Shown piece after piece: positions 4,570 through 33,552 of a DNA stretch of 64,000 bases. The DNA is from an uncultured Gammaproteobacteria bacterium. Its GTDB lineage: Bacteria > Patescibacteriota > Microgenomatia > PFEM01 > DATLAM01. The stretch spans positions 30,792 through 94,791 of the forward strand of contig CAZMIZ010000003.1 in the NCBI GenBank assembly GCA_964566925.1, in the 5' to 3' direction. Position 1 is the stretch's first letter. The number at the start of each line of letters is the position of its first letter. The position numbers were made by a program, and so were the translations under genes. The notes beneath the pieces are model-generated. The model saw only the letters and a list, made by a program, of their open reading frames with translations. It was not told the DNA's origin and did no database searches.

Positions 4570-4643
4570 TGGACGATGCAGGACTTGAACCTGCGACCCC
4601 TGCAATGTGAATGCAGTGCTCTGGCCAACTGAGCTAATCGTCC
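4570..4643 (-). tRNA. tRNA-Val (anticodon CAC)
   Basis: Minus-strand GGACGAT-TA-GCTC-AGTTGGCC-AGAGC-A-CTGCA-TTCACAT-TGCAG-GGGTC-GCAGG-TTCAAGT-CCTGC-ATCGTCC-A. Canonical cloverleaf with T-loop TTCAAGT. CCA not encoded. Confidence 0.85.
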
Positions 4644-27894: not shown

Positions 27895-28815
27895 CTACCT
27901 GTCTGGAGCGACTTCGCAGGATTCCTTAACAATTTCTAAAATATAATTAATCTTTTCCTCTTTTAAGACATCAATCCACCAAAGAGGAGTTTTCCCCCAT
28001 TCATAAGAAGCTGGGACTCTCTTAAAAAGCTTCTCCTTGTCTGATTTAAGCTTTTTCTTCCTGACATAGATTCTAAGTTTGTTTTGGTATACGTGAATAG
28101 AGGCAAAATTGTACCAATTAAATTTGTAACCGATGTAAAACTTAACTGGCTTTTCCTTGATATTCTCATCAATAGAGAAAATCTTTTCTCTTAACTTCTC
28201 AAACAACTCCCTAATTTTAGGCGAGGCCTTTTTCCTGTGATCTTCGATTGTATATTCTCTCACCTCACGACTAACGGTGGCGACGGCCTTACCTTTGGTT
28301 ACTGTTTTGATAGATTCTTTAGCTTCAGGGGATTTAAGTTGATTGAAAAGAATAAGATTATCTTCAAAAATTTCCACTTCCCACAACTCTATTGGCAAAT
28401 CCTTAAAACCAATTGCCCCTCGTTGATGAGGGGTAAAAGAAGGGGCGACGAATAAAACCCTGGATTGAGACCAGTCGACATCGCCGCGCTTTAGATTCTT
28501 TTTCTTCTTTTCATTGTATTCAAGAATGAAATCGGACTTATTATTGAGCATCAAGGAGAGATAGTTCAAACCTTGATCAACAACACTAAAACTTTGATCT
28601 CTCTTATATTCGATGACAACAAAGGAGCGCGTTTCTGAATCAAAAGCTAGGGTATCGATGTAGAAGTTATGGATTCCGAATTCACTGCTGATAAATTCTA
28701 AACCAAAAATTATTTCAAGGTTTTCCTCGGTTAGTTTCTGTAAATCCTTTTCAAAATCAAATTTCTTTTCTTTAACCTGGCTGAGTTTCTTATTCTTTAT
28801 CTGAAAAATCGGCAT
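27895..28815 (-). CDS. Putative PD-(D/E)xK-fold nuclease-like protein, 306 aa
   Basis: N-terminal FYIDTLAFD...(16 aa)...VVIEYK matches hh-D...ExK; Lys-rich C-terminal half. Motif-level only. Confidence 0.45.
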   Translation of the reverse strand: MPIFQIKNKKLSQVKEKKFDFEKDLQKLTEENLEIIFGLEFISSEFGIHNFYIDTLAFDSETRSFVVIEYKRDQSFSVVDQGLNYLSLMLNNKSDFILEYNEKKKKNLKRGDVDWSQSRVLFVAPSFTPHQRGAIGFKDLPIELWEVEIFEDNLILFNQLKSPEAKESIKTVTKGKAVATVSREVREYTIEDHRKKASPKIRELFEKLREKIFSIDENIKEKPVKFYIGYKFNWYNFASIHVYQNKLRIYVRKKKLKSDKEKLFKRVPASYEWGKTPLWWIDVLKEEKINYILEIVKESCEVAPDR

Positions 28816-28847: not shown

Positions 28848-29624
28848 TTAAGAGATCTTTTCTTGAATCATTGGCCCAAGCTGTTCAACCTCATACAAAA
28901 TCTCAGCGTTATTATCAGTAGTAATTTTATATCTCGCGTTTTGAATCTCAACGATTGTGGAAAAGCTTAACTTCCAAGCCTCCTCTCCCTCCGTTTTTAT
29001 GAAATTTATGACAGGAATGTTTGGAAGAGCATTGTTTTCTATGGCAAGGCCTATTGCCTTTGACACCCTTCGCTTTCGACGATCTCTCCATTCCTGTAGC
29101 CTAACCTGTTCTTCGTAAATAATTGTTGCAGTAAGAACAGTAAGGATTATTACAAGGATGTAGATTATTGCCTGTAAATATGTATAAAAGAGTGGAGGGT
29201 TCATTGACAAAGACATCCCAAGCCAAATAAAAATTAAGCCCAAAAATAGTATAGCCACTATAAAAATGAGAACCAGCCTATGATGATCTATTCTAAAAGG
29301 CGGCCCAACTCGTTTAACTTTCTTAATCTCTTCCGGTGTATGTCTTTGAGGGTTTATACGATCAAGATAGTCTCTGTATTTTTTATTCTGCCACCAAAAT
29401 GGCTGAATCGAAATAAATGGTCTCTGTCTATACCAGAAAATTACAAGAAATGAGACTAACAGCGTCAAAACTGACGCCGCTAGAAATACTTCTCTATTTA
29501 AGAATATTCCAGCCGTAGTACCTGGAAACAACAGATAAAAAAACTGAATCAGCGGGAGCGCATAAGAGAGAAAGCCGGCTAAGCTTTTAGAAATTTCATT
29601 TACACTTTCTTTTGTTTTGTCCAT
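28848..29624 (-). CDS. Membrane protein (about 4 TM) with a cytoplasmic C-terminal domain, 258 aa
   Basis: Hydrophobic segments; no motif recognised. Confidence 0.5.
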   Translation of the reverse strand: MDKTKESVNEISKSLAGFLSYALPLIQFFYLLFPGTTAGIFLNREVFLAASVLTLLVSFLVIFWYRQRPFISIQPFWWQNKKYRDYLDRINPQRHTPEEIKKVKRVGPPFRIDHHRLVLIFIVAILFLGLIFIWLGMSLSMNPPLFYTYLQAIIYILVIILTVLTATIIYEEQVRLQEWRDRRKRRVSKAIGLAIENNALPNIPVINFIKTEGEEAWKLSFSTIVEIQNARYKITTDNNAEILYEVEQLGPMIQEKIS

Positions 29625-29667: not shown

Positions 29668-29773
29668 AACTTGATTGTACACTTTAAGTTATTAAAGGTC
29701 AACTTTTCGTAATTCCAATTTCTCGATTTAAATCAAATTTTTCTCAACTTCCGGGTGAAGTTTGGCGAGTTGG

Positions 29774-32287
29774 CTATGTCGTTATATCGCCGAATTCACT
29801 TCTTAGCTTTTTAATAGCTTGTTGTGCCCCCCATTTCTTTCCAAATGCTTGGCGTATTCTTTCCGAAATATATTTTCTTTTTTTACGACTTTTAGAGACG
29901 GGTAGATAAATTTCTTTCCATCTATTCCCAATATTCGGAAGAGTTGTTTCTATAAAGATTTTGTTGCGCAGCTGTTTTTGGGCTAGTTCATGAGATAGTA
30001 AATAAATTAAGTAGTAAGGGTTTATATCCCACTGGTTCTTATCATTGATTACCCTGATTACAAGCAATTCCCTGGTTAATAAAATTTCGTTTTCGTCGGG
30101 AGAAACCATCGCTACTGTGCCAATTCTGTAACTTCCTCTTCTAACGAAAATAATATCTTTTTCTTTAAGGCTAACTCCGCTGCCCTTTATCTTTAAATAC
30201 ATCTTTCGGGGAATCAAAGACGTCGGGTTTTTGTAAATCTCCCAATTAACAATATCCTTAACCCTTATATACGGAACTTCCCCTCTGCCTTTATAATGTC
30301 CAGGAGGAGAACCATGTCCATCGGAATATTCGACTACTTTATGCCTAATTAATTTCGATAAGCCTACCATCTCAAAACTTCCTTCCTTGGCAATTTTTTT
30401 CAGCTCTTTTTCTCTTTGCCCCCAATAATAGCGAGGAATGTAGATGTCCGTTTTAATTGCGGAGGTGTTGATAGCAAAAAGATTTTTATTACCTTTTTTA
30501 TCTGGGTTGTTTATTTCTTCCCTTATTATTTCTGTGTCGTCCCATAATTCTTCTGTAAAGCCTTTTGTCTTTTGGTCAAATCTATATATTGGCTTGCCGT
30601 TGTGGTCATGTCCAACCTCCTCGGCTACTGCCATGATAATTTTCTCTTCTTGGGGTTTGTTTTTTTGTAACACTAAAAGCATAGTTTTAGCATTACAGTG
30701 GGGTCTAAATGTATTGTGTGCAAGATCAATAATTGCTTTTATATTGTGCTTTTTTAGAAATTGTAAGATATAGCGGGTCTTTGGCGCATGGAAATATGTC
30801 TCAGGTAAAACTATGCCCAATATACCCCCATCTTTAAGAAGTTGTAAGCATCTCTCAATAAAGAGAATTTGAGGTTCCTCGCTATCTTTAAGTTGGGCTG
30901 TTTTCGCATAGCCTGTCCCTGATTTTTTCCACCGGTAAGCAAGGTCATATTGTTTAAGTTTTTCTTCTCCTTCTACTTTTATCTTTGAACCAAAGGGAGG
31001 GTTAGTCAATACAATATCAAACGAGCCAAGCTGTATTTTGTCTCTAGCTTGCATATCCCAATTTTTGGGACTATCAAGGCTGTCTTCACAAAAAATACCG
31101 CCTTTTCCATCCCCAACTATCGCCATATAAGCCTTAGTGACTTTACTCAAGAAATAATCTTTATCGACGCCCTTAAAATTAGAATTGGCCACTGTTAGCT
31201 TTTCTAGCTCGATATTAGTTTTCTTCCATTCATATCTTTTCCCTTGATTCTCAATCTTATTCCATACATACCTTAAACTGTCAATCAAAAATCCTCCTGA
31301 CCCACAAGCAGGATCAATGATAAGATGTTTTGGCGAGGGATCAACTAATCTTACAAGGGTTTGAATCACGTTCCGCGGAGTAAAAAATTGTCCCTGAGAT
31401 CCCTTTAACGCTGGGCCTATAAAAACTTCAAAGGCCTCAGCTATAACATCCCTCTCTGCGTCCGTTAAACAGAAGTTTTGCAGTTCACCCACAATGTAAG
31501 TTAAGGATCGGGCATCCAAATTTAGTGAGTCGCCTACATCTATAATCTCGGGGTATCTTTTCTTAACTTTCTTAAACAGGTGAAGAATTCTTTCTTTTAC
31601 TTCTCCAGTGCTCTCTTTTATTCCAGCCCTGAATTGTACTATATTGTCTTGTTTAGTAAATTTTTCATCATAAATCTTGCAAAAAATAACGTTAATCAAC
31701 TGTTGAGCAAGAACCTCGTCTCTAGTAGCGCCCACAGCCATTCCTGCTAAATAATTCCTCATAGCATTAAACGTAGATTTTAAGTTACGAGGAGGCTTTA
31801 AGTCTTTCCTTTTAAACAAGCCTATATCTGCTATTCTTTGGCCTGCTCGAGGGATAATTGGAATCTCCTCGAAGTAAACTTTTCCCTCTTTCTCTGTTTT
31901 TTTGAGAAAGAGCCTTTCCTTTCCGTTAAACCAAACACCTAGTTGAGCTTCGGACAGTCTCAGGTAGTCTTTCAACTGTGATTCTCCGTCTTTTCTAGTC
32001 TTTTTTTTACATTCAACTATTATCCATAAATTATCATCGATCTTTCTCTCTGACTTAAAAACAGCAATATCTACCGGGTATTCTTTCTTTTTATCAGAAG
32101 GTCTTGCTTTTACTCTCCATTGGGAATGGGTCTGTATTTGTGTTTTCTTATAGCCATAATCTTCGACAAGGGATTTAGCGAATACCTGAACAGCCTCGAT
32201 TTCTTCTGGAGTTGCCTTTACCCACTTATTAGTAATATAGTCTTGGATGTGCCCTTCCTTAGTTTCAACCCTTTTCTTCTTTGCCAT
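29774..32287 (-). CDS. Single-chain Type IIG (MmeI-like) restriction-modification enzyme: N-terminal PD-(D/E)xK endonuclease, gamma-class N6-adenine MTase, and a C-terminal target-recognition region
   Basis: VDIAVF...IIVECKK nuclease motif, MTase motif I IDPACGSGGFL, motif IV NPPFG, about 380 aa after motif IV. Region markedly AT-rich. Confidence 0.65.
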   Translation of the reverse strand: MAKKKRVETKEGHIQDYITNKWVKATPEEIEAVQVFAKSLVEDYGYKKTQIQTHSQWRVKARPSDKKKEYPVDIAVFKSERKIDDNLWIIVECKKKTRKDGESQLKDYLRLSEAQLGVWFNGKERLFLKKTEKEGKVYFEEIPIIPRAGQRIADIGLFKRKDLKPPRNLKSTFNAMRNYLAGMAVGATRDEVLAQQLINVIFCKIYDEKFTKQDNIVQFRAGIKESTGEVKERILHLFKKVKKRYPEIIDVGDSLNLDARSLTYIVGELQNFCLTDAERDVIAEAFEVFIGPALKGSQGQFFTPRNVIQTLVRLVDPSPKHLIIDPACGSGGFLIDSLRYVWNKIENQGKRYEWKKTNIELEKLTVANSNFKGVDKDYFLSKVTKAYMAIVGDGKGGIFCEDSLDSPKNWDMQARDKIQLGSFDIVLTNPPFGSKIKVEGEEKLKQYDLAYRWKKSGTGYAKTAQLKDSEEPQILFIERCLQLLKDGGILGIVLPETYFHAPKTRYILQFLKKHNIKAIIDLAHNTFRPHCNAKTMLLVLQKNKPQEEKIIMAVAEEVGHDHNGKPIYRFDQKTKGFTEELWDDTEIIREEINNPDKKGNKNLFAINTSAIKTDIYIPRYYWGQREKELKKIAKEGSFEMVGLSKLIRHKVVEYSDGHGSPPGHYKGRGEVPYIRVKDIVNWEIYKNPTSLIPRKMYLKIKGSGVSLKEKDIIFVRRGSYRIGTVAMVSPDENEILLTRELLVIRVINDKNQWDINPYYLIYLLSHELAQKQLRNKIFIETTLPNIGNRWKEIYLPVSKSRKKRKYISERIRQAFGKKWGAQQAIKKLRSEFGDITT

Positions 32288-32356
32288 ATTCGGGTTTTGT
32301 TCGTATATCTAGACTACCTTCTTTAAGAATCTTTGTCAAGAGCTAGTCTCGTCCTA

Positions 32357-32389
32357 ATTCTACCTTATAAATTTGCTTTCAGCAACTTA
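32357..32389 (-). promoter_or_regulatory. Promoter/operator module copy 1 (TTGCTG-17-TAGAAT, with inverted repeat TTGCT-TTC-AGCAA over the -35) upstream of the RM gene
   Basis: 29-nt repeat 32361-32389 identical at 28 of 29 positions to 32736-32764. Confidence 0.5.
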
Positions 32390-32437
32390 TCACGTCAGAC
32401 GTGACAAGCAGGCCAAGCCACGCTTGTGTTAGGGTAT

Positions 32438-32472
32438 GATGTATGATTTAAGATTTAAGATTGAAGATTGAT
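32438..32472. repeat. Five tandem degenerate heptamers: GATGTAT GATTTAA GATTTAA GATTGAA GATTGAT
   Basis: Read directly; lies between the small regulator ORF and the RM promoter. Confidence 0.5.
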
Positions 32473-32500
32473 GAGGTTCTTGATTTCCTTAATCTCGTGC

Positions 32501-32713
32501 CTATTGAGGCCATTCAGAATAGGGTAACTGAGCGTCCAAGTAAGTGTCTTCGGGAGCCGCATCGGGAAATCTAATTCCTGCCGGTCCTTCTAATTTCGGT
32601 CTGAAAATCTTTCCTCCCTTAGTAACTAACTCCACAGCTGCCAAATTTAAAAACTGGCTTGCAGGAACAATCATACCAACAACTCTTCCTCTCTCTGGCC
32701 CTTTTTCTGGCAT
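32501..32713 (-). CDS. Small AbrB/MazE-like (swapped-hairpin) DNA-binding protein, about 70 aa; candidate controller of the RM system
   Basis: RGRVVGMIVPASQFLNLAAVELVTKGGKIFRP parallels MazE/AbrB (GNSPAVRIPATLMQALNL..DEV....GKLIIEP). Own copy of the promoter/operator module and a GAGGTG RBS. Confidence 0.4.
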   Translation of the reverse strand: MPEKGPERGRVVGMIVPASQFLNLAAVELVTKGGKIFRPKLEGPAGIRFPDAAPEDTYLDAQLPYSEWPQ

Positions 32714-32731
32714 CTCTTTCACCTCGCTCTT

Positions 32732-32764
32732 ATTTTACCCTATAAATTTGCTTTCAGCAACTTA
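32732..32764 (-). promoter_or_regulatory. Promoter/operator module copy 2 (TTGCTG-17-TAAAAT with the same TTGCT-TTC-AGCAA palindrome) upstream of the small regulator ORF
   Basis: See copy 1. Confidence 0.5.
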
Positions 32765-32807
32765 AAGGGCAGGCCATACCATGATTAAGGTTTAGTGTCT
32801 AGAAGGG

Positions 32808-33128: not shown

Positions 33129-33204
33129 CTTGAGTTAATTTTATCCTTTTCTTGCAATAACCTCAAGGTAAACTACTTAAGAAGGGGGAATGAAGATTTT
33201 TCGC

Positions 33205-33552
33205 CTACATTCTTTCTGGGCCTTTGGGGGTAGAGGTTTCTAGGGAAAGGGTACCCTCAGCCATCTGTTCTTGGTAATTACGAACAAACTCTACTGCCGC
33301 GGGAACTCTGGTCCCTCCCTCTCTTACCGCTTCAACGAAACTATCAATGATTGCTTGTTGTTGTTCTGGAGAAAGACTCCTGACCATCCTGACCCAGGAA
33401 GCGCCTCTTTTGTTACGAACAATTATTGGCTCTTTTAACTCTTTGCCAGGCCATCTCTCCTTTTCTTTAAGTCTTATAATTCTAGTGCCAACATCACAAG
33501 GCCTAACCCCAATTCCTTCTGCAAATTCAGCGACAGTGGTCATTTGAGCCAA
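33205..33552 (-). CDS. Hypothetical protein with a putative N-terminal HTH (excisionase/MerR-like: TTVAEFAEGIGV)
   Basis: ORF; weak HTH pattern. Confidence 0.4.
   Translation of the reverse strand: MAQMTTVAEFAEGIGVRPCDVGTRIIRLKEKERWPGKELKEPIIVRNKRGASWVRMVRSLSPEQQQAIIDSFVEAVREGGTRVPAAVEFVRNYQEQMAEGTLSLETSTPKGPERM

What the first reader, a model, noticed from the sequence alone, without database searches (positions are those of the whole stretch)
32357..32764. RM promoter/operator duplicated in front of a small AbrB/MazE-fold ORF: a non-canonical controller circuit
A 29-nt element recurs 375 bp apart: taccYtataaatttgctttcagcaactta at 32361-32389 and 32736-32764. On the minus strand each copy reads as TTGCTG-17-TA(G/A)AAT, with the palindrome TTGCT-TTC-AGCAA overlapping the -35. 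One copy drives the Type IIG RM gene. The other drives a 70-aa ORF whose sequence (RGRVVGMIVPASQFLNLAAVELVTKGGKIFRP) resembles the swapped-hairpin MazE/AbrB fold. Known RM controller proteins are XRE-type HTH proteins, so an AbrB-fold regulator sharing an operator with the RM gene would be unusual. Alternatively the ORF is an antitoxin-like element.
Basis: partly seen in the sequence, partly recalled or inferred. Interest (0 to 1): 0.7.

Follow-up and report, generated by a model that had tools for sequence, protein, structure and literature searches.

The report
Duplicated promoter beside a swappable restriction gene
The repeat is real and looks like one promoter present twice, once before a tiny gene of unknown function and once before a horizontally acquired restriction-modification gene. 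The tiny protein shows no sign of being an AbrB/MazE-type regulator or a dedicated controller of that gene, so this is a modest case of promoter reuse at a variable defence-gene site.

Summary
A 42-nt direct repeat (37/42 identical; core 29 nt with 1 mismatch) lies at 32348-32389 and 32723-32764, and nowhere else in the 64 kb. On the minus strand each copy reads TTGCTG-17-TA(A/G)AAT.

The interpretation mostly fails.
- The 70-aa ORF belongs to a real but tiny family: 9 clusters among 5.8 billion proteins.
- Only 2 of 9 family lineages sit directly next to an RM system.
- None of 84 loci encoding homologues of the RM enzyme carries the small ORF or the repeat.

What is there is a two-promoter module. 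P1 is the small gene's own promoter. P2 heads a cargo slot that holds a Type IIG-like RM gene here, a BsaWI-type RM pair in one relative and a DUF3800 gene in another. A conserved 36-nt hairpin segment closes the slot in the two RM-bearing genomes.

The -35/spacer half of the two promoters is identical within the genome (24/24). The -10 half of P1 matches P1 of other genomes. This points to local copying or gene conversion. Co-regulation by a shared factor is possible but untested.

The parts
32723..32764 (-). Promoter copy P1 (repeat copy 2): -35-like TTGCTG 32760-32755, 17-nt spacer, -10 TAAAAT 32737-32732. This is the native promoter of the small ORF.
   Evidence: Repeat. Sequence. GTAAAAT and the following ~10 nt are conserved in front of the small ORF in other genomes. 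Its -10-proximal 17 nt match P1 of L002 (16/17) and of L010/L014 (15/17), but its sister copy only 12/17.
32501..32713 (-). Small ORF of 70 aa (ATG 32713; SD GAGGTG 32725-32720). Member of a tiny uncharacterised family with the core motif G-R-I-V-G-x-I-V-P...A-x-E-I-V-A-x-G-G-K-I-F-R...G-I-R-F-P and a variable acidic tail.
   Evidence: 9 clusters in 5.8 billion proteins. It is the only frame open in all 9 loci, and its substitutions are the most conservative (mean BLOSUM62 +1.27 against <=0.57 in other frames), but pN/pS is about 0.6. AlphaFold gives beta13-16, alpha23-31, beta35-37, beta45-48. No family, PDB or defence-database match.
32390..32500 (-). Spacer between the small ORF and P2. It contains short AT-rich tandem motifs, a hairpin ACAAGC...GCTTGT (32427-32404) and a perfect 15-bp palindrome TCACGTCTGACGTGA (32404-32390) abutting P2. 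There is no canonical terminator.
   Evidence: Sequence. No terminator-like site. The palindrome is unique in the window. Relatives carry a conserved hairpin plus T-run (TAGAAC..GTTCTATAATTTTGAG) here, which the window has lost.
32348..32389 (-). Promoter copy P2 (repeat copy 1): TTGCTG 32385-32380, 17-nt spacer, TAGAAT 32362-32357. It forms the left edge of the cargo slot and lies 69 nt upstream of the RM start codon.
   Evidence: The upstream 24 nt are identical to P1. A P2 at the same position exists in L008 (driving DUF3800) and L005 (driving BsaWI RM). It is absent from all 84 loci encoding RM homologues, so it belongs to the host locus and not to the RM cassette.
32311..32339 (-). Second promoter-like site inside the RM leader: TTGACA (32339-32334), 17-nt spacer, TAGTCT (32316-32311). 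It may be the cargo's own promoter.
   Evidence: Read. It has 6/6 + 3/6 matches and falls below the scan threshold. Inference only.
29774..32287 (-). Cargo: 837-aa single-chain Type IIG-like restriction-modification enzyme (PD-ExK nuclease domain + gamma-class N6-adenine methyltransferase + C-terminal target-recognition region).
   Evidence: Pfam HSDR_N_2, N6_Mtase, Eco57I. PADLOC MTase_II / REase_MTase_IIG, and NCBIfam MAD2 below cutoff. There are >4900 homologues across many phyla, with the nearest at 71% identity. GC is 33-41%, against 42-50% in the flanking housekeeping genes.
29728..29763 (-). Right edge of the cargo slot: AAACTTCACCCGGAAGTTGAGAAAAATTTGATTTAA (hairpin AACTTC/GAAGTT followed by an A/T-rich run), starting 11 nt after the RM stop codon.
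   Evidence: It is 94% identical over 36 nt to the sequence directly after the unrelated BsaWI-type methyltransferase in L005 (2686-2721). It is absent from the loci of RM homologues.

Best explanation
The repeat is one sigma-70-type core promoter (about -41 to +1) present twice.

P1 (32723-32764) is the native promoter of a short-leader, monocistronic small gene. That gene belongs to a very rare, fast-evolving family of unknown function.

P2 (32348-32389) is a resident promoter at the left edge of an adjacent cargo slot. The slot's right edge is a conserved 36-nt hairpin segment (29728-29763). In this genome it holds a horizontally acquired single-chain Type IIG-like RM gene. In sister genomes the same position after P2 holds a BsaWI-type RM pair or a DUF3800 gene.

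The two promoters are old paralogues. Their -35/spacer halves have been made identical within each genome by local copying or gene conversion between copies 375 bp apart.

Functionally, the small gene and the cargo receive the same promoter input. In the window there is no recognisable terminator between them, so read-through from P1 probably adds to RM transcription. No dedicated controller protein is needed, because a single-chain RM enzyme has no separate R and M genes to time.

Shown: the repeat, the slot boundaries, cargo turnover, the mosaic identity pattern, and the absence of AbrB-like features.

Inferred: promoter activity, gene conversion and read-through.
For: 1. The repeat is exact and unique. 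Its limits coincide with a core promoter, and GTAAAAT is conserved in 8 of 9 lineages.
2. The same two-promoter layout occurs in L008 (P2 then DUF3800) and L005 (half P2 plus another copy, then BsaWI RE + MTase). L009 is an empty site.
3. The 36 nt after the RM stop codon equal the 36 nt after the unrelated RM pair in L005 (94%).
4. P2, the right edge and the small ORF are all missing from 84 loci encoding homologues of the RM enzyme. The RM gene is therefore the incoming cargo. Its GC is lower than its surroundings.
5. The identity pattern is a mosaic. The upstream 24 nt are 24/24 identical between P1 and P2, and an upstream segment containing them is <=68% identical to any promoter elsewhere. 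The -10-proximal 17 nt of P1 match P1 of other genomes (15-16/17) but its sister copy only 12/17. L008 and L005 show the same within-genome similarity with a different upstream sequence.
6. Both window copies share a derived insertion of about 9 nt relative to the ancestral promoter TGTGGATAA(C/G)TTGCGTGAA.AATGGTAAAAT seen in L010 and L014.
7. There is no terminator-like site between the small ORF and P2.
Against: - No transcription data exist. The -35 matches consensus at only 3/6, and a second promoter-like site (TTGACA-17-TAGTCT) lies nearer the RM start.
- Only five close and four distant lineages exist, so gene conversion is inferred from very short sequences.
- P1 is more conserved than the ORF it drives: 34/36 nt between L010 and L014, against about 75% in the ORF (read). 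Both promoters keep the same upstream half in three genomes. Selection for a shared operator would also produce this pattern.
- The function of the small protein is unknown.
Confidence: 0.55

Rival explanations
1. Shared-operator circuit with the small protein as regulator. The 70-aa protein binds the common -35/spacer element of P1 and P2, autoregulates itself and sets the expression of whatever cargo sits in the slot. This would be a new kind of defence-slot regulator, though not an AbrB-type one.
For: - The upstream halves of P1 and P2 stay nearly identical within each of three genomes while differing between genomes.
- P1 is more conserved than the ORF between distant lineages.
- The protein core (residues 8-50) is basic and predicted to fold.
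- The cargo in two genomes is RM.
Against: - No DNA-binding fold or family was detected.
- The protein is 74-82% identical between genomes whose upstream promoter halves are unrelated, apart from an inherited TGAAAG.
- Most family members have no duplicated promoter and no RM neighbour.
- A single-chain RM enzyme does not need R/M timing.
- pN/pS is about 0.6-1, so constraint on the protein is weak.
Confidence: 0.15
2. Shared operator for another host factor. Both promoters are controlled by a trans-factor encoded elsewhere. Candidates are DnaA in the relatives, whose -35 is covered by a perfect DnaA box TGTGGATAA, or the conserved 115-aa neighbour (33205-33552).
For: - Five of six perfect DnaA-box 9-mers in 109 kb of family loci lie exactly over the -35 of P1/P2 (about 0.8 expected).
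- The promoter is deeply conserved.
- The 115-aa ORF is conserved two genes upstream in the window and in L008 (31% identity, E 2e-13).
Against: - In the window the DnaA box is lost from P1 and degenerate (GTG-ATAAG) at P2.
- The five boxes share ancestry and are not independent.
- The 115-aa protein has no family match.
Confidence: 0.12
3. The module acts mainly as RNA. The ~330-nt transcript from P1 is a structured or dual-function RNA, or a long leader for the cargo, and the ORF is secondary.
For: - Synonymous sites are unusually conserved. Variable columns by codon position are 21/14/13 among close copies, and pN/pS in the ORF frame is no better than in two other frames.
- RNAalifold helices show 7 pairs with compensatory change, against 3.1+-1.1 in shuffles and 0-3 in slid controls.
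- The 3' flank is conserved beyond the stop codon.
Against: - The single-sequence fold is no better than shuffles (z +1.15).
- There is no Rfam match even at E<=10.
- The structure was derived from the same alignment it was tested on.
- The ORF, its SD and its ATG are kept in all 9 lineages, and all other frames carry stop codons.
Confidence: 0.1
4. The small ORF is an antitoxin-like element.
For: Small size, a folded basic N-terminal part with a disordered acidic tail, and location in variable, defence-rich regions.
Against: - There is no recurrent adjacent partner. Neighbours are RM, DUF3800, NUDIX, a 79-aa membrane-like ORF, a HicB-like gene and a 115-aa ORF.
- No antitoxin family or fold match was found.
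Confidence: 0.03

Closest known systems
Promoter propagation / putative mobile promoters (Matus-Garcia, Nijveen & van Passel 2012, PMC3488235; PMC3575422)
   Same: Highly similar promoter sequence upstream of two non-homologous genes in one genome. It is proposed to wire newly acquired or silent genes into host transcription.
   Different: - The repeat is 42 nt, below their operational threshold of >50 nt at >=80% identity.
- The two copies are adjacent (375 bp apart) rather than dispersed.
- They show half-promoter mosaicism.
Variable RM / defence-gene hot spots flanked by conserved sequence (own knowledge: allelic RM replacement at fixed chromosomal sites, e.g. in Helicobacter and Neisseria)
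   Same: Unrelated RM systems occupy the same position between the same short flanks in related genomes (window versus L005).
   Different: The left flank is itself a promoter copied from the neighbouring small gene. Only three occupied slots and one empty site are known.
C-protein (controller) dependent Type II RM systems (e.g. C.PvuII, C.AhdI, C.Esp1396I, C.Kpn2I; PMC6237814, PMC3488213)
   Same: A small ORF lies upstream of and on the same strand as an RM gene, and a palindrome overlaps the -35.
   Different: - The protein is not an Xre-type HTH.
- There is no C-box pair.
- The RM enzyme is a single chain with no R/M timing problem.
- The association is not conserved.
RptR, small repressor next to Type I RM defence islands (PMC12255303)
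   Same: A small gene at the head of an RM-containing defence island, with repeated elements in the promoter.
   Different: RptR is all-helical, binds TAGCTA repeats and is strongly and widely associated with Type I RM. The family here has none of these properties.
AbrB/MazE/SpoVT swapped-hairpin transition-state regulators and antitoxins (Pfam PF04014)
   Same: A superficial motif resemblance (GRVV..IP ... E.V..G.KI).
   Different: There is no significant sequence, profile or predicted-structure similarity.

Membership tests
AbrB/MazE/SpoVT swapped-hairpin domain | Match to Pfam PF04014 (MazE_antitoxin/SpoVT_AbrB) or related models | tested here: not met
   No Pfam family at E<=1 for the window protein. 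None of 9 family members hits PF04014 at E<=10.
AbrB/MazE/SpoVT swapped-hairpin domain | Profile-profile similarity to known members | tested here: not met
   hhalign of the family alignment A3 against A4: probability 0.7%, E 0.083.
AbrB/MazE/SpoVT swapped-hairpin domain | beta-beta-alpha-beta-beta monomer whose structure superposes on solved AbrB/MazE chains | tested here: not met
AbrB/MazE/SpoVT swapped-hairpin domain | Obligate dimer forming the interleaved barrel that binds DNA | not testable with these tools
   No multimer prediction or binding assay was available.
C-protein controlled RM system | Controller is a small Xre/lambda-cI-like HTH protein | tested here: not met
   No HTH family hit. 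The predicted fold has a single helix.
C-protein controlled RM system | C-box operators (paired inverted repeats) upstream of the C gene | tested here: not met
   There is only one 5-bp palindrome, TTGCT-N3-AGCAA, per copy. With up to 2 mismatches the motif is no more frequent in the window than in shuffles. Relatives have a different upstream sequence.
C-protein controlled RM system | Conserved genetic linkage of controller and RM genes | tested here: not met
   Only 2 of 9 small-ORF lineages are directly followed by RM. 0 of 84 loci encoding RM homologues carry the small ORF.
Type II toxin-antitoxin (antitoxin) | Adjacent, co-oriented toxin partner conserved across homologues | tested here: not met
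   Neighbours differ in every lineage.
Putative mobile promoter (PMP) | Homologous sequence upstream of non-homologous CDSs in one genome | tested here: met
Putative mobile promoter (PMP) | Alignment >50 nt with >=80% identity (PMC3488235) | tested here: not met
   42 nt at 88%.
Putative mobile promoter (PMP) | Actual promoter activity | not testable with these tools
   Only consensus (-10 5/6, -35 3/6) and cross-genome conservation of GTAAAAT are available.
Type IIG restriction-modification enzyme | Nuclease, methyltransferase and target-recognition parts in one polypeptide | tested here: met
   HSDR_N_2 (residues 34-143, with D...ECK motif), N6_Mtase 278-563, Eco57I. There is a weak HsdS-like match at 704-789 and PADLOC REase_MTase_IIG hits. 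Enzymatic activity was not tested.
Variable RM/defence hot spot | Unrelated cargo between the same flanks in related genomes | tested here: met
   The window (Type IIG-like) and L005 (BsaWI RE + N6_N4 MTase) share P2-type promoter sequence on the left and 34/36 nt on the right. L008 holds DUF3800, and L009 is empty.

The most novel reading that the evidence does not exclude
The small protein founds a new family of regulators. Through an unusually conserved promoter (with a DnaA-box-like -35 in relatives), copied in front of the neighbouring plug-in slot, it couples expression of whatever defence gene lands there to its own autoregulated, possibly replication-linked, circuit.
Probability: 0.1. 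Interest if true: 0.6.

Novelty: new member of a known kind. Interest (0 to 1): 0.3.

Why it matters
If the main reading is right, this is a tidy natural example of how a horizontally acquired restriction gene gets expressed in a new host. It lands in a slot that already provides a host promoter, copied from the neighbouring gene, and a terminator-like edge. The slot is reused for different defence genes in sister genomes.

That is useful for understanding defence-gene turnover in poorly studied uncultured bacteria, but it uses known processes.

The unresolved part is the small gene. It is kept in nine lineages, evolves fast at the protein level, and has a promoter more conserved than its coding sequence. 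It could be a regulator or a dual-function RNA, and it would be cheap to test.

Tried and rejected
- **Non-coding RNA gene between the repeats (RNase P-like guess from GGGAGGAAAG).** No Rfam hit at gathering score or at E<=10. The fold z-score is +1.15.
- **GTARAATWAGRRCGA as a genome-wide promoter signature.** It occurs only twice in the 64-kb window, both times in this locus. The looser TAAAATTAG hits are intragenic.
- **Giant-protein hits to the small ORF profile (P0005, P0007 and others).** P0007, the one inspected, is a low-complexity repeat protein, so these are judged spurious.
- **Weak YciO/YrdC two-segment match (E about 0.1).** Not significant, and the segments are in the wrong order.
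- **SNase synteny between the window and L002/L010.** Rejected.
- **The L014 115-aa ORF as a homologue of the window's 115-aa ORF.** Rejected.
- **Small ORF in viral contigs or in GTDB species genomes.** None found.
- **Antisense 73-aa ORF (32544-32765, + strand).** Other frames are interrupted by stops in the relatives.
- **afdb50 fold search.** The library was unavailable.
- **Source organism.** Not identified. A Patescibacteria/CPR origin is only a guess from gene content and promoter style.

Full report
**1. The observation**

The element exists exactly as described. TACCYTATAAATTTGCTTTCAGCAACTTA occurs at 32361-32389 and 32736-32764. There is no other copy in the window even with 3 mismatches, and none in 100 shuffles. 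The repeat extends to 42 nt (32348-32389 / 32723-32764, 37/42 identical).

On the minus strand each copy reads TAAG-TTGCTG-(17 nt)-TA(A/G)AAT-...CGAG, which spans roughly -41 to +1 of a sigma-70-type promoter. The -35 matches consensus at only 3 of 6 positions, so the generic scan lists neither copy. The promoter reading therefore rests on position and on conservation of the -10 (section 3).

The distal copy lies 9 nt upstream of GAGGTG-N6-ATG of a 70-codon ORF (32713-32501). The proximal copy's -10 lies 69 nt upstream of the ATG (32287) of an 837-aa protein. That protein has HSDR_N_2 (PD-ExK), N6_Mtase and Eco57I domains (PADLOC/NCBIfam), which is the make-up of a single-chain Type IIG-like RM enzyme.

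**2. Is the small ORF real, and is it AbrB/MazE-like?**

The word-index search found only three other clusters at 74-82% identity. Full HMMER over 1.84 billion representatives added four more distant small proteins of 62-70 aa. It also returned some giant repeat proteins. The one I inspected (P0007) is low-complexity sequence, and I treat those hits as spurious. A profile search confirmed nine clusters in total among 5.8 billion proteins.

The alignment has a protein-like pattern: G-R-I-V-G-x-I-V-P ... A-x-E-I-V-A-x-G-G-K-I-F-R ... G-I-R-F-P, then a variable acidic tail. The annotated frame is the only one open in all nine lineages. It also shows the most conservative substitutions (mean BLOSUM62 +1.27 against <=0.57).

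The selection signal is weak, however.
- Among close copies the variable columns fall 21/14/13 on codon positions 1/2/3, with pN/pS about 0.4-3.
- In the distant set pN/pS is about 0.6, no better than in two other frames.
- The neighbouring DUF3795 protein is 83% identical between the window and L014, whereas the small protein is only 50-56% identical.

So the gene is probably translated, evolves fast, and has unusually conserved synonymous sites.

None of the tests supports an AbrB/MazE fold.
- No Pfam hit for the window protein or for any of the nine members at E<=10.
- Nothing below E 0.09 in a PDB profile search, and no AbrB-type chain.
- hhalign against an AbrB/Abh/SpoVT/MazE/PemI/ChpS alignment gives probability 0.7%. 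One MazE-type protein came from locus L010.
- AlphaFold with four sequences was uninformative (pLDDT 51). With nine sequences it gave pLDDT about 82 for residues 10-50 and a beta-alpha-beta-beta unit.
- PADLOC, NCBIfam and PHROGs gave nothing.

The remaining loophole is that a swapped-hairpin fold forms only in a dimer, which I could not model.

**3. Comparative anatomy**

I recovered the DNA around every family member.

Close relatives of the window:
- L002: SNase(-) | small ORF | two small genes(-) | 86-aa gene | Trypsin_2 | methyltransferase | 359-aa gene | HerA.
- L005: DUF3800 | small ORF | BsaWI-type endonuclease + N6_N4 methyltransferase.
- L008: 128-aa ORF | DUF3800 | small ORF | second DUF3800.
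- L009: small ORF | NUDIX(-).

Distant members sit between SecDF and the CCA-adding enzyme (L010-13), next to a 115-aa ORF and DUF3795 (L014), or before a HicB-like gene (L016). L015 is a 1.5-kb contig that ends shortly after the small ORF. Only two of nine lineages have an RM system directly downstream.

Conversely, 80 loci encoding homologues of the 837-aa enzyme carry neither the small ORF nor the repeat. These loci come from many phyla and are <=61% identical to it. The two closest homologues (71% and 67%) also lack both. The closest one instead has a 51-aa ribbon-helix-helix-like ORF overlapping its start codon, and the next has an Xre-type HTH gene upstream.

**4. What the repeat is**

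Aligning the module DNA shows that homology between genomes begins sharply at the -10 (GTAAAAT). It runs through the ORF and continues 25-80 nt beyond the stop codon. That 3' region contains a hairpin plus T-run (TAGAAC..GTTCTATAATTTTGAG), which looks like the small gene's terminator. The window has lost it, and no terminator-like site is found between the small ORF and P2.

Upstream of the -10 the sequence differs between genomes but is duplicated within genomes.
- Window: TAAGTTGCTGAAAGCAAATTTATA, twice.
- L008 and L005: (G/C)TGTGG(A/C)TAACTCAT(CC/TT)TGAAAGTG, twice.

The ancestral form is kept in the distant L010 and L014: TGTGGATAA(C/G)TTGCGTGAA.AATGGTAAAATTAGAG. It is 34/36 identical between them, although their ORFs are only about 75% identical at the nucleotide level. 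Relative to this ancestral form, both window copies share an insertion of about 9 nt (CAAATTTAT). The insertion displaces the old -35 (TGGATA), brings TTGCTG to 17-nt spacing and creates the palindrome.

Within the window repeat the upstream 24 nt are 24/24 identical, but the -10-proximal 18 nt are only 13/18. The -10-proximal 17 nt of the small-ORF copy match small-ORF promoters of other genomes (16/17 with L002, 15/17 with L010 and L014) better than its own sister copy (12/17). The copies are thus old paralogues whose -35/spacer half was copied from one to the other after the lineages split. Alternatively, the half was re-duplicated.

**5. The cargo slot**

The 36 nt beginning 11 nt after the RM stop codon (29728-29763, AAACTTCACCCGGAAGTTGAGAAAAATTTGATTTAA, containing a hairpin) are 94% identical to the 36 nt that follow the unrelated BsaWI-type methyltransferase in L005. 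This segment is absent from the loci of RM homologues.

P2 on the left and this segment on the right therefore bound a slot that holds different RM systems in two genomes. In L008 the slot after P2 holds DUF3800. It is closed by a 122-nt segment shared with L002 (90%), and the insertion is flanked by a direct repeat of about 20 nt (GAGTAAA.TTCC..CCCCT). That sequence is single-copy in the empty site of L009.

The RM gene has lower GC (33-41%) than the neighbouring housekeeping genes (42-50%). It belongs to a huge, promiscuous family with >4900 homologues. The RM gene is the incoming cargo, and P2 belongs to the host locus.

**6. Most likely mechanism**

I read the locus as a two-promoter module. 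P1 drives a short-leader monocistronic small gene. P2, a copy of P1's upstream half joined to a paralogous -10 region, drives whatever occupies the slot.

Identical -35/spacer sequences mean that both genes see the same transcriptional input. In the window, loss of the intervening terminator probably adds read-through from P1. A second promoter-like site (TTGACA-17-TAGTCT, 32339-32311) may be the cargo's own promoter.

This matches 'promoter propagation/reuse' (PMC3488235, PMC3575422) at a variable RM hot spot. The repeat is shorter than the operational threshold in that work (>50 nt). A dedicated controller is not required, because a single-chain enzyme has no separate R and M genes to time (own knowledge of C-protein systems; PMC6237814, PMC3488213).

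Confidence is about 0.55. Promoter activity, gene conversion and read-through are inferred, not shown.

**7. Rivals**

- **The small protein as regulator of both promoters (0.15).** The within-genome identity of the upstream halves and the deep conservation of P1 favour this. Against it: the protein has no detectable DNA-binding fold. It stays about 80% identical between genomes whose upstream halves are unrelated. It usually occurs without a duplicated promoter.
- **Another trans-factor (0.12).** In relatives the -35 is covered by a perfect DnaA box, TGTGGATAA. Five of the six perfect boxes in 109 kb of family loci lie exactly there. These boxes share ancestry, and the window has lost the box.
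- **An RNA-level function (0.10).** Synonymous-site conservation fits this. So do RNAalifold helices with 7 compensatory pairs, against 3.1+-1.1 in shuffles. However, the structure was derived from the same alignment, the single-sequence fold is unremarkable and Rfam is silent.
- **Antitoxin (0.03).** There is no conserved partner gene.

**8. Novelty and verdict**

The repeat is real and biologically meaningful, but the unusual part of the claim does not survive. There is no support for an AbrB/MazE-fold controller sharing an operator with an RM gene. What remains is an instance of known processes: promoter reuse and RM turnover at a fixed slot. It sits next to an uncharacterised, very rare small gene whose promoter is oddly well conserved. 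Interest 0.3.

Noticed in passing
L005 659-667 and 983-991; L008 6308-6316; L010 7953-7961; L014 97-105: A perfect DnaA-box 9-mer, TGTGGATAA, covers the -35 (TGGATA) of the small-ORF promoter and of its P2 copy in relatives. These account for five of six perfect boxes in 109 kb, with about 0.8 expected. The window has lost it at P1 and keeps GTG-ATAAG at P2.
   Followed up: partly
window 27895-28815 (-): The 306-aa DUF5655/NucS-like protein matches the PADLOC candidate defence family PDC-S18 (E 1.8e-106). With the RM gene and a 258-aa membrane protein (28848-29624), it forms a low-GC defence island downstream of the slot.
   Followed up: partly
window 32580-32589 with 32649-32658, and 32663-32674 with 32679-32690 (minus-strand RNA): RNAalifold helices lie inside the small-ORF mRNA. 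Seven pairs show compensatory change, against 3.1 in shuffles. Synonymous sites are unusually conserved. The RNA may be dual-function.
   Followed up: partly
window 32390-32404: A perfect 15-bp palindrome, TCACGTC-N-GACGTGA, lies directly upstream of the RM-side promoter copy only. It is unique in the window, and its meaning is unknown.
   Followed up: partly
L097 523-678; L099 1567-1776: The closest homologue of the RM enzyme (71% identity) has a 51-aa ribbon-helix-helix-like ORF overlapping its start codon. The next closest (67%) has an Xre-type HTH gene and a serine recombinase upstream. This RM family may use different small regulators in other hosts.
   Followed up: no
window 33205-33552 (-); L008 4469-4855: A 115-aa ORF with no family match is conserved (31% identity, E 2e-13) two genes upstream of the small ORF in both the window and L008. 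Its N-terminus looks HTH-like by eye only.
   Followed up: partly
window 33138-33166 (-); L014 about 1069; L016 about 1433; L008 about 4976: Several accessory genes (DUF3795, DUF3800, HicB-like) have TAAAAT followed 9-11 nt later by ATG. These are leaderless-type promoters. The upstream parts of such promoters are shuffled between genes and genomes. For example, AGTTTACCTTGAG lies before DUF3795 in the window and before the small ORF in L002.
   Followed up: partly
L008 6258-6285 and 7105-7135; L009 445-482: The P2 + DUF3800 insertion in L008 is flanked by a direct repeat of about 20 nt (GAGTAAA.TTCC..CCCCT.AA). The sequence is single-copy at the empty site in L009, so it may be a target or att-like site. 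No recombinase gene lies nearby.
   Followed up: partly
L015 about 1385-1425; L016 about 1080-1130: A GC-rich double-hairpin element (GGGGCCGAAGGCCCTAAATCC..GCCAAGGCCCCGA..GGCTTTTTT) lies downstream of the small ORF in L015 and upstream of it in L016. It looks like a REP- or terminator-like repeat.
   Followed up: no
window 4570-4643 (-): The only Rfam hit at gathering score in the window is a tRNA (69.6 bits).
   Followed up: no
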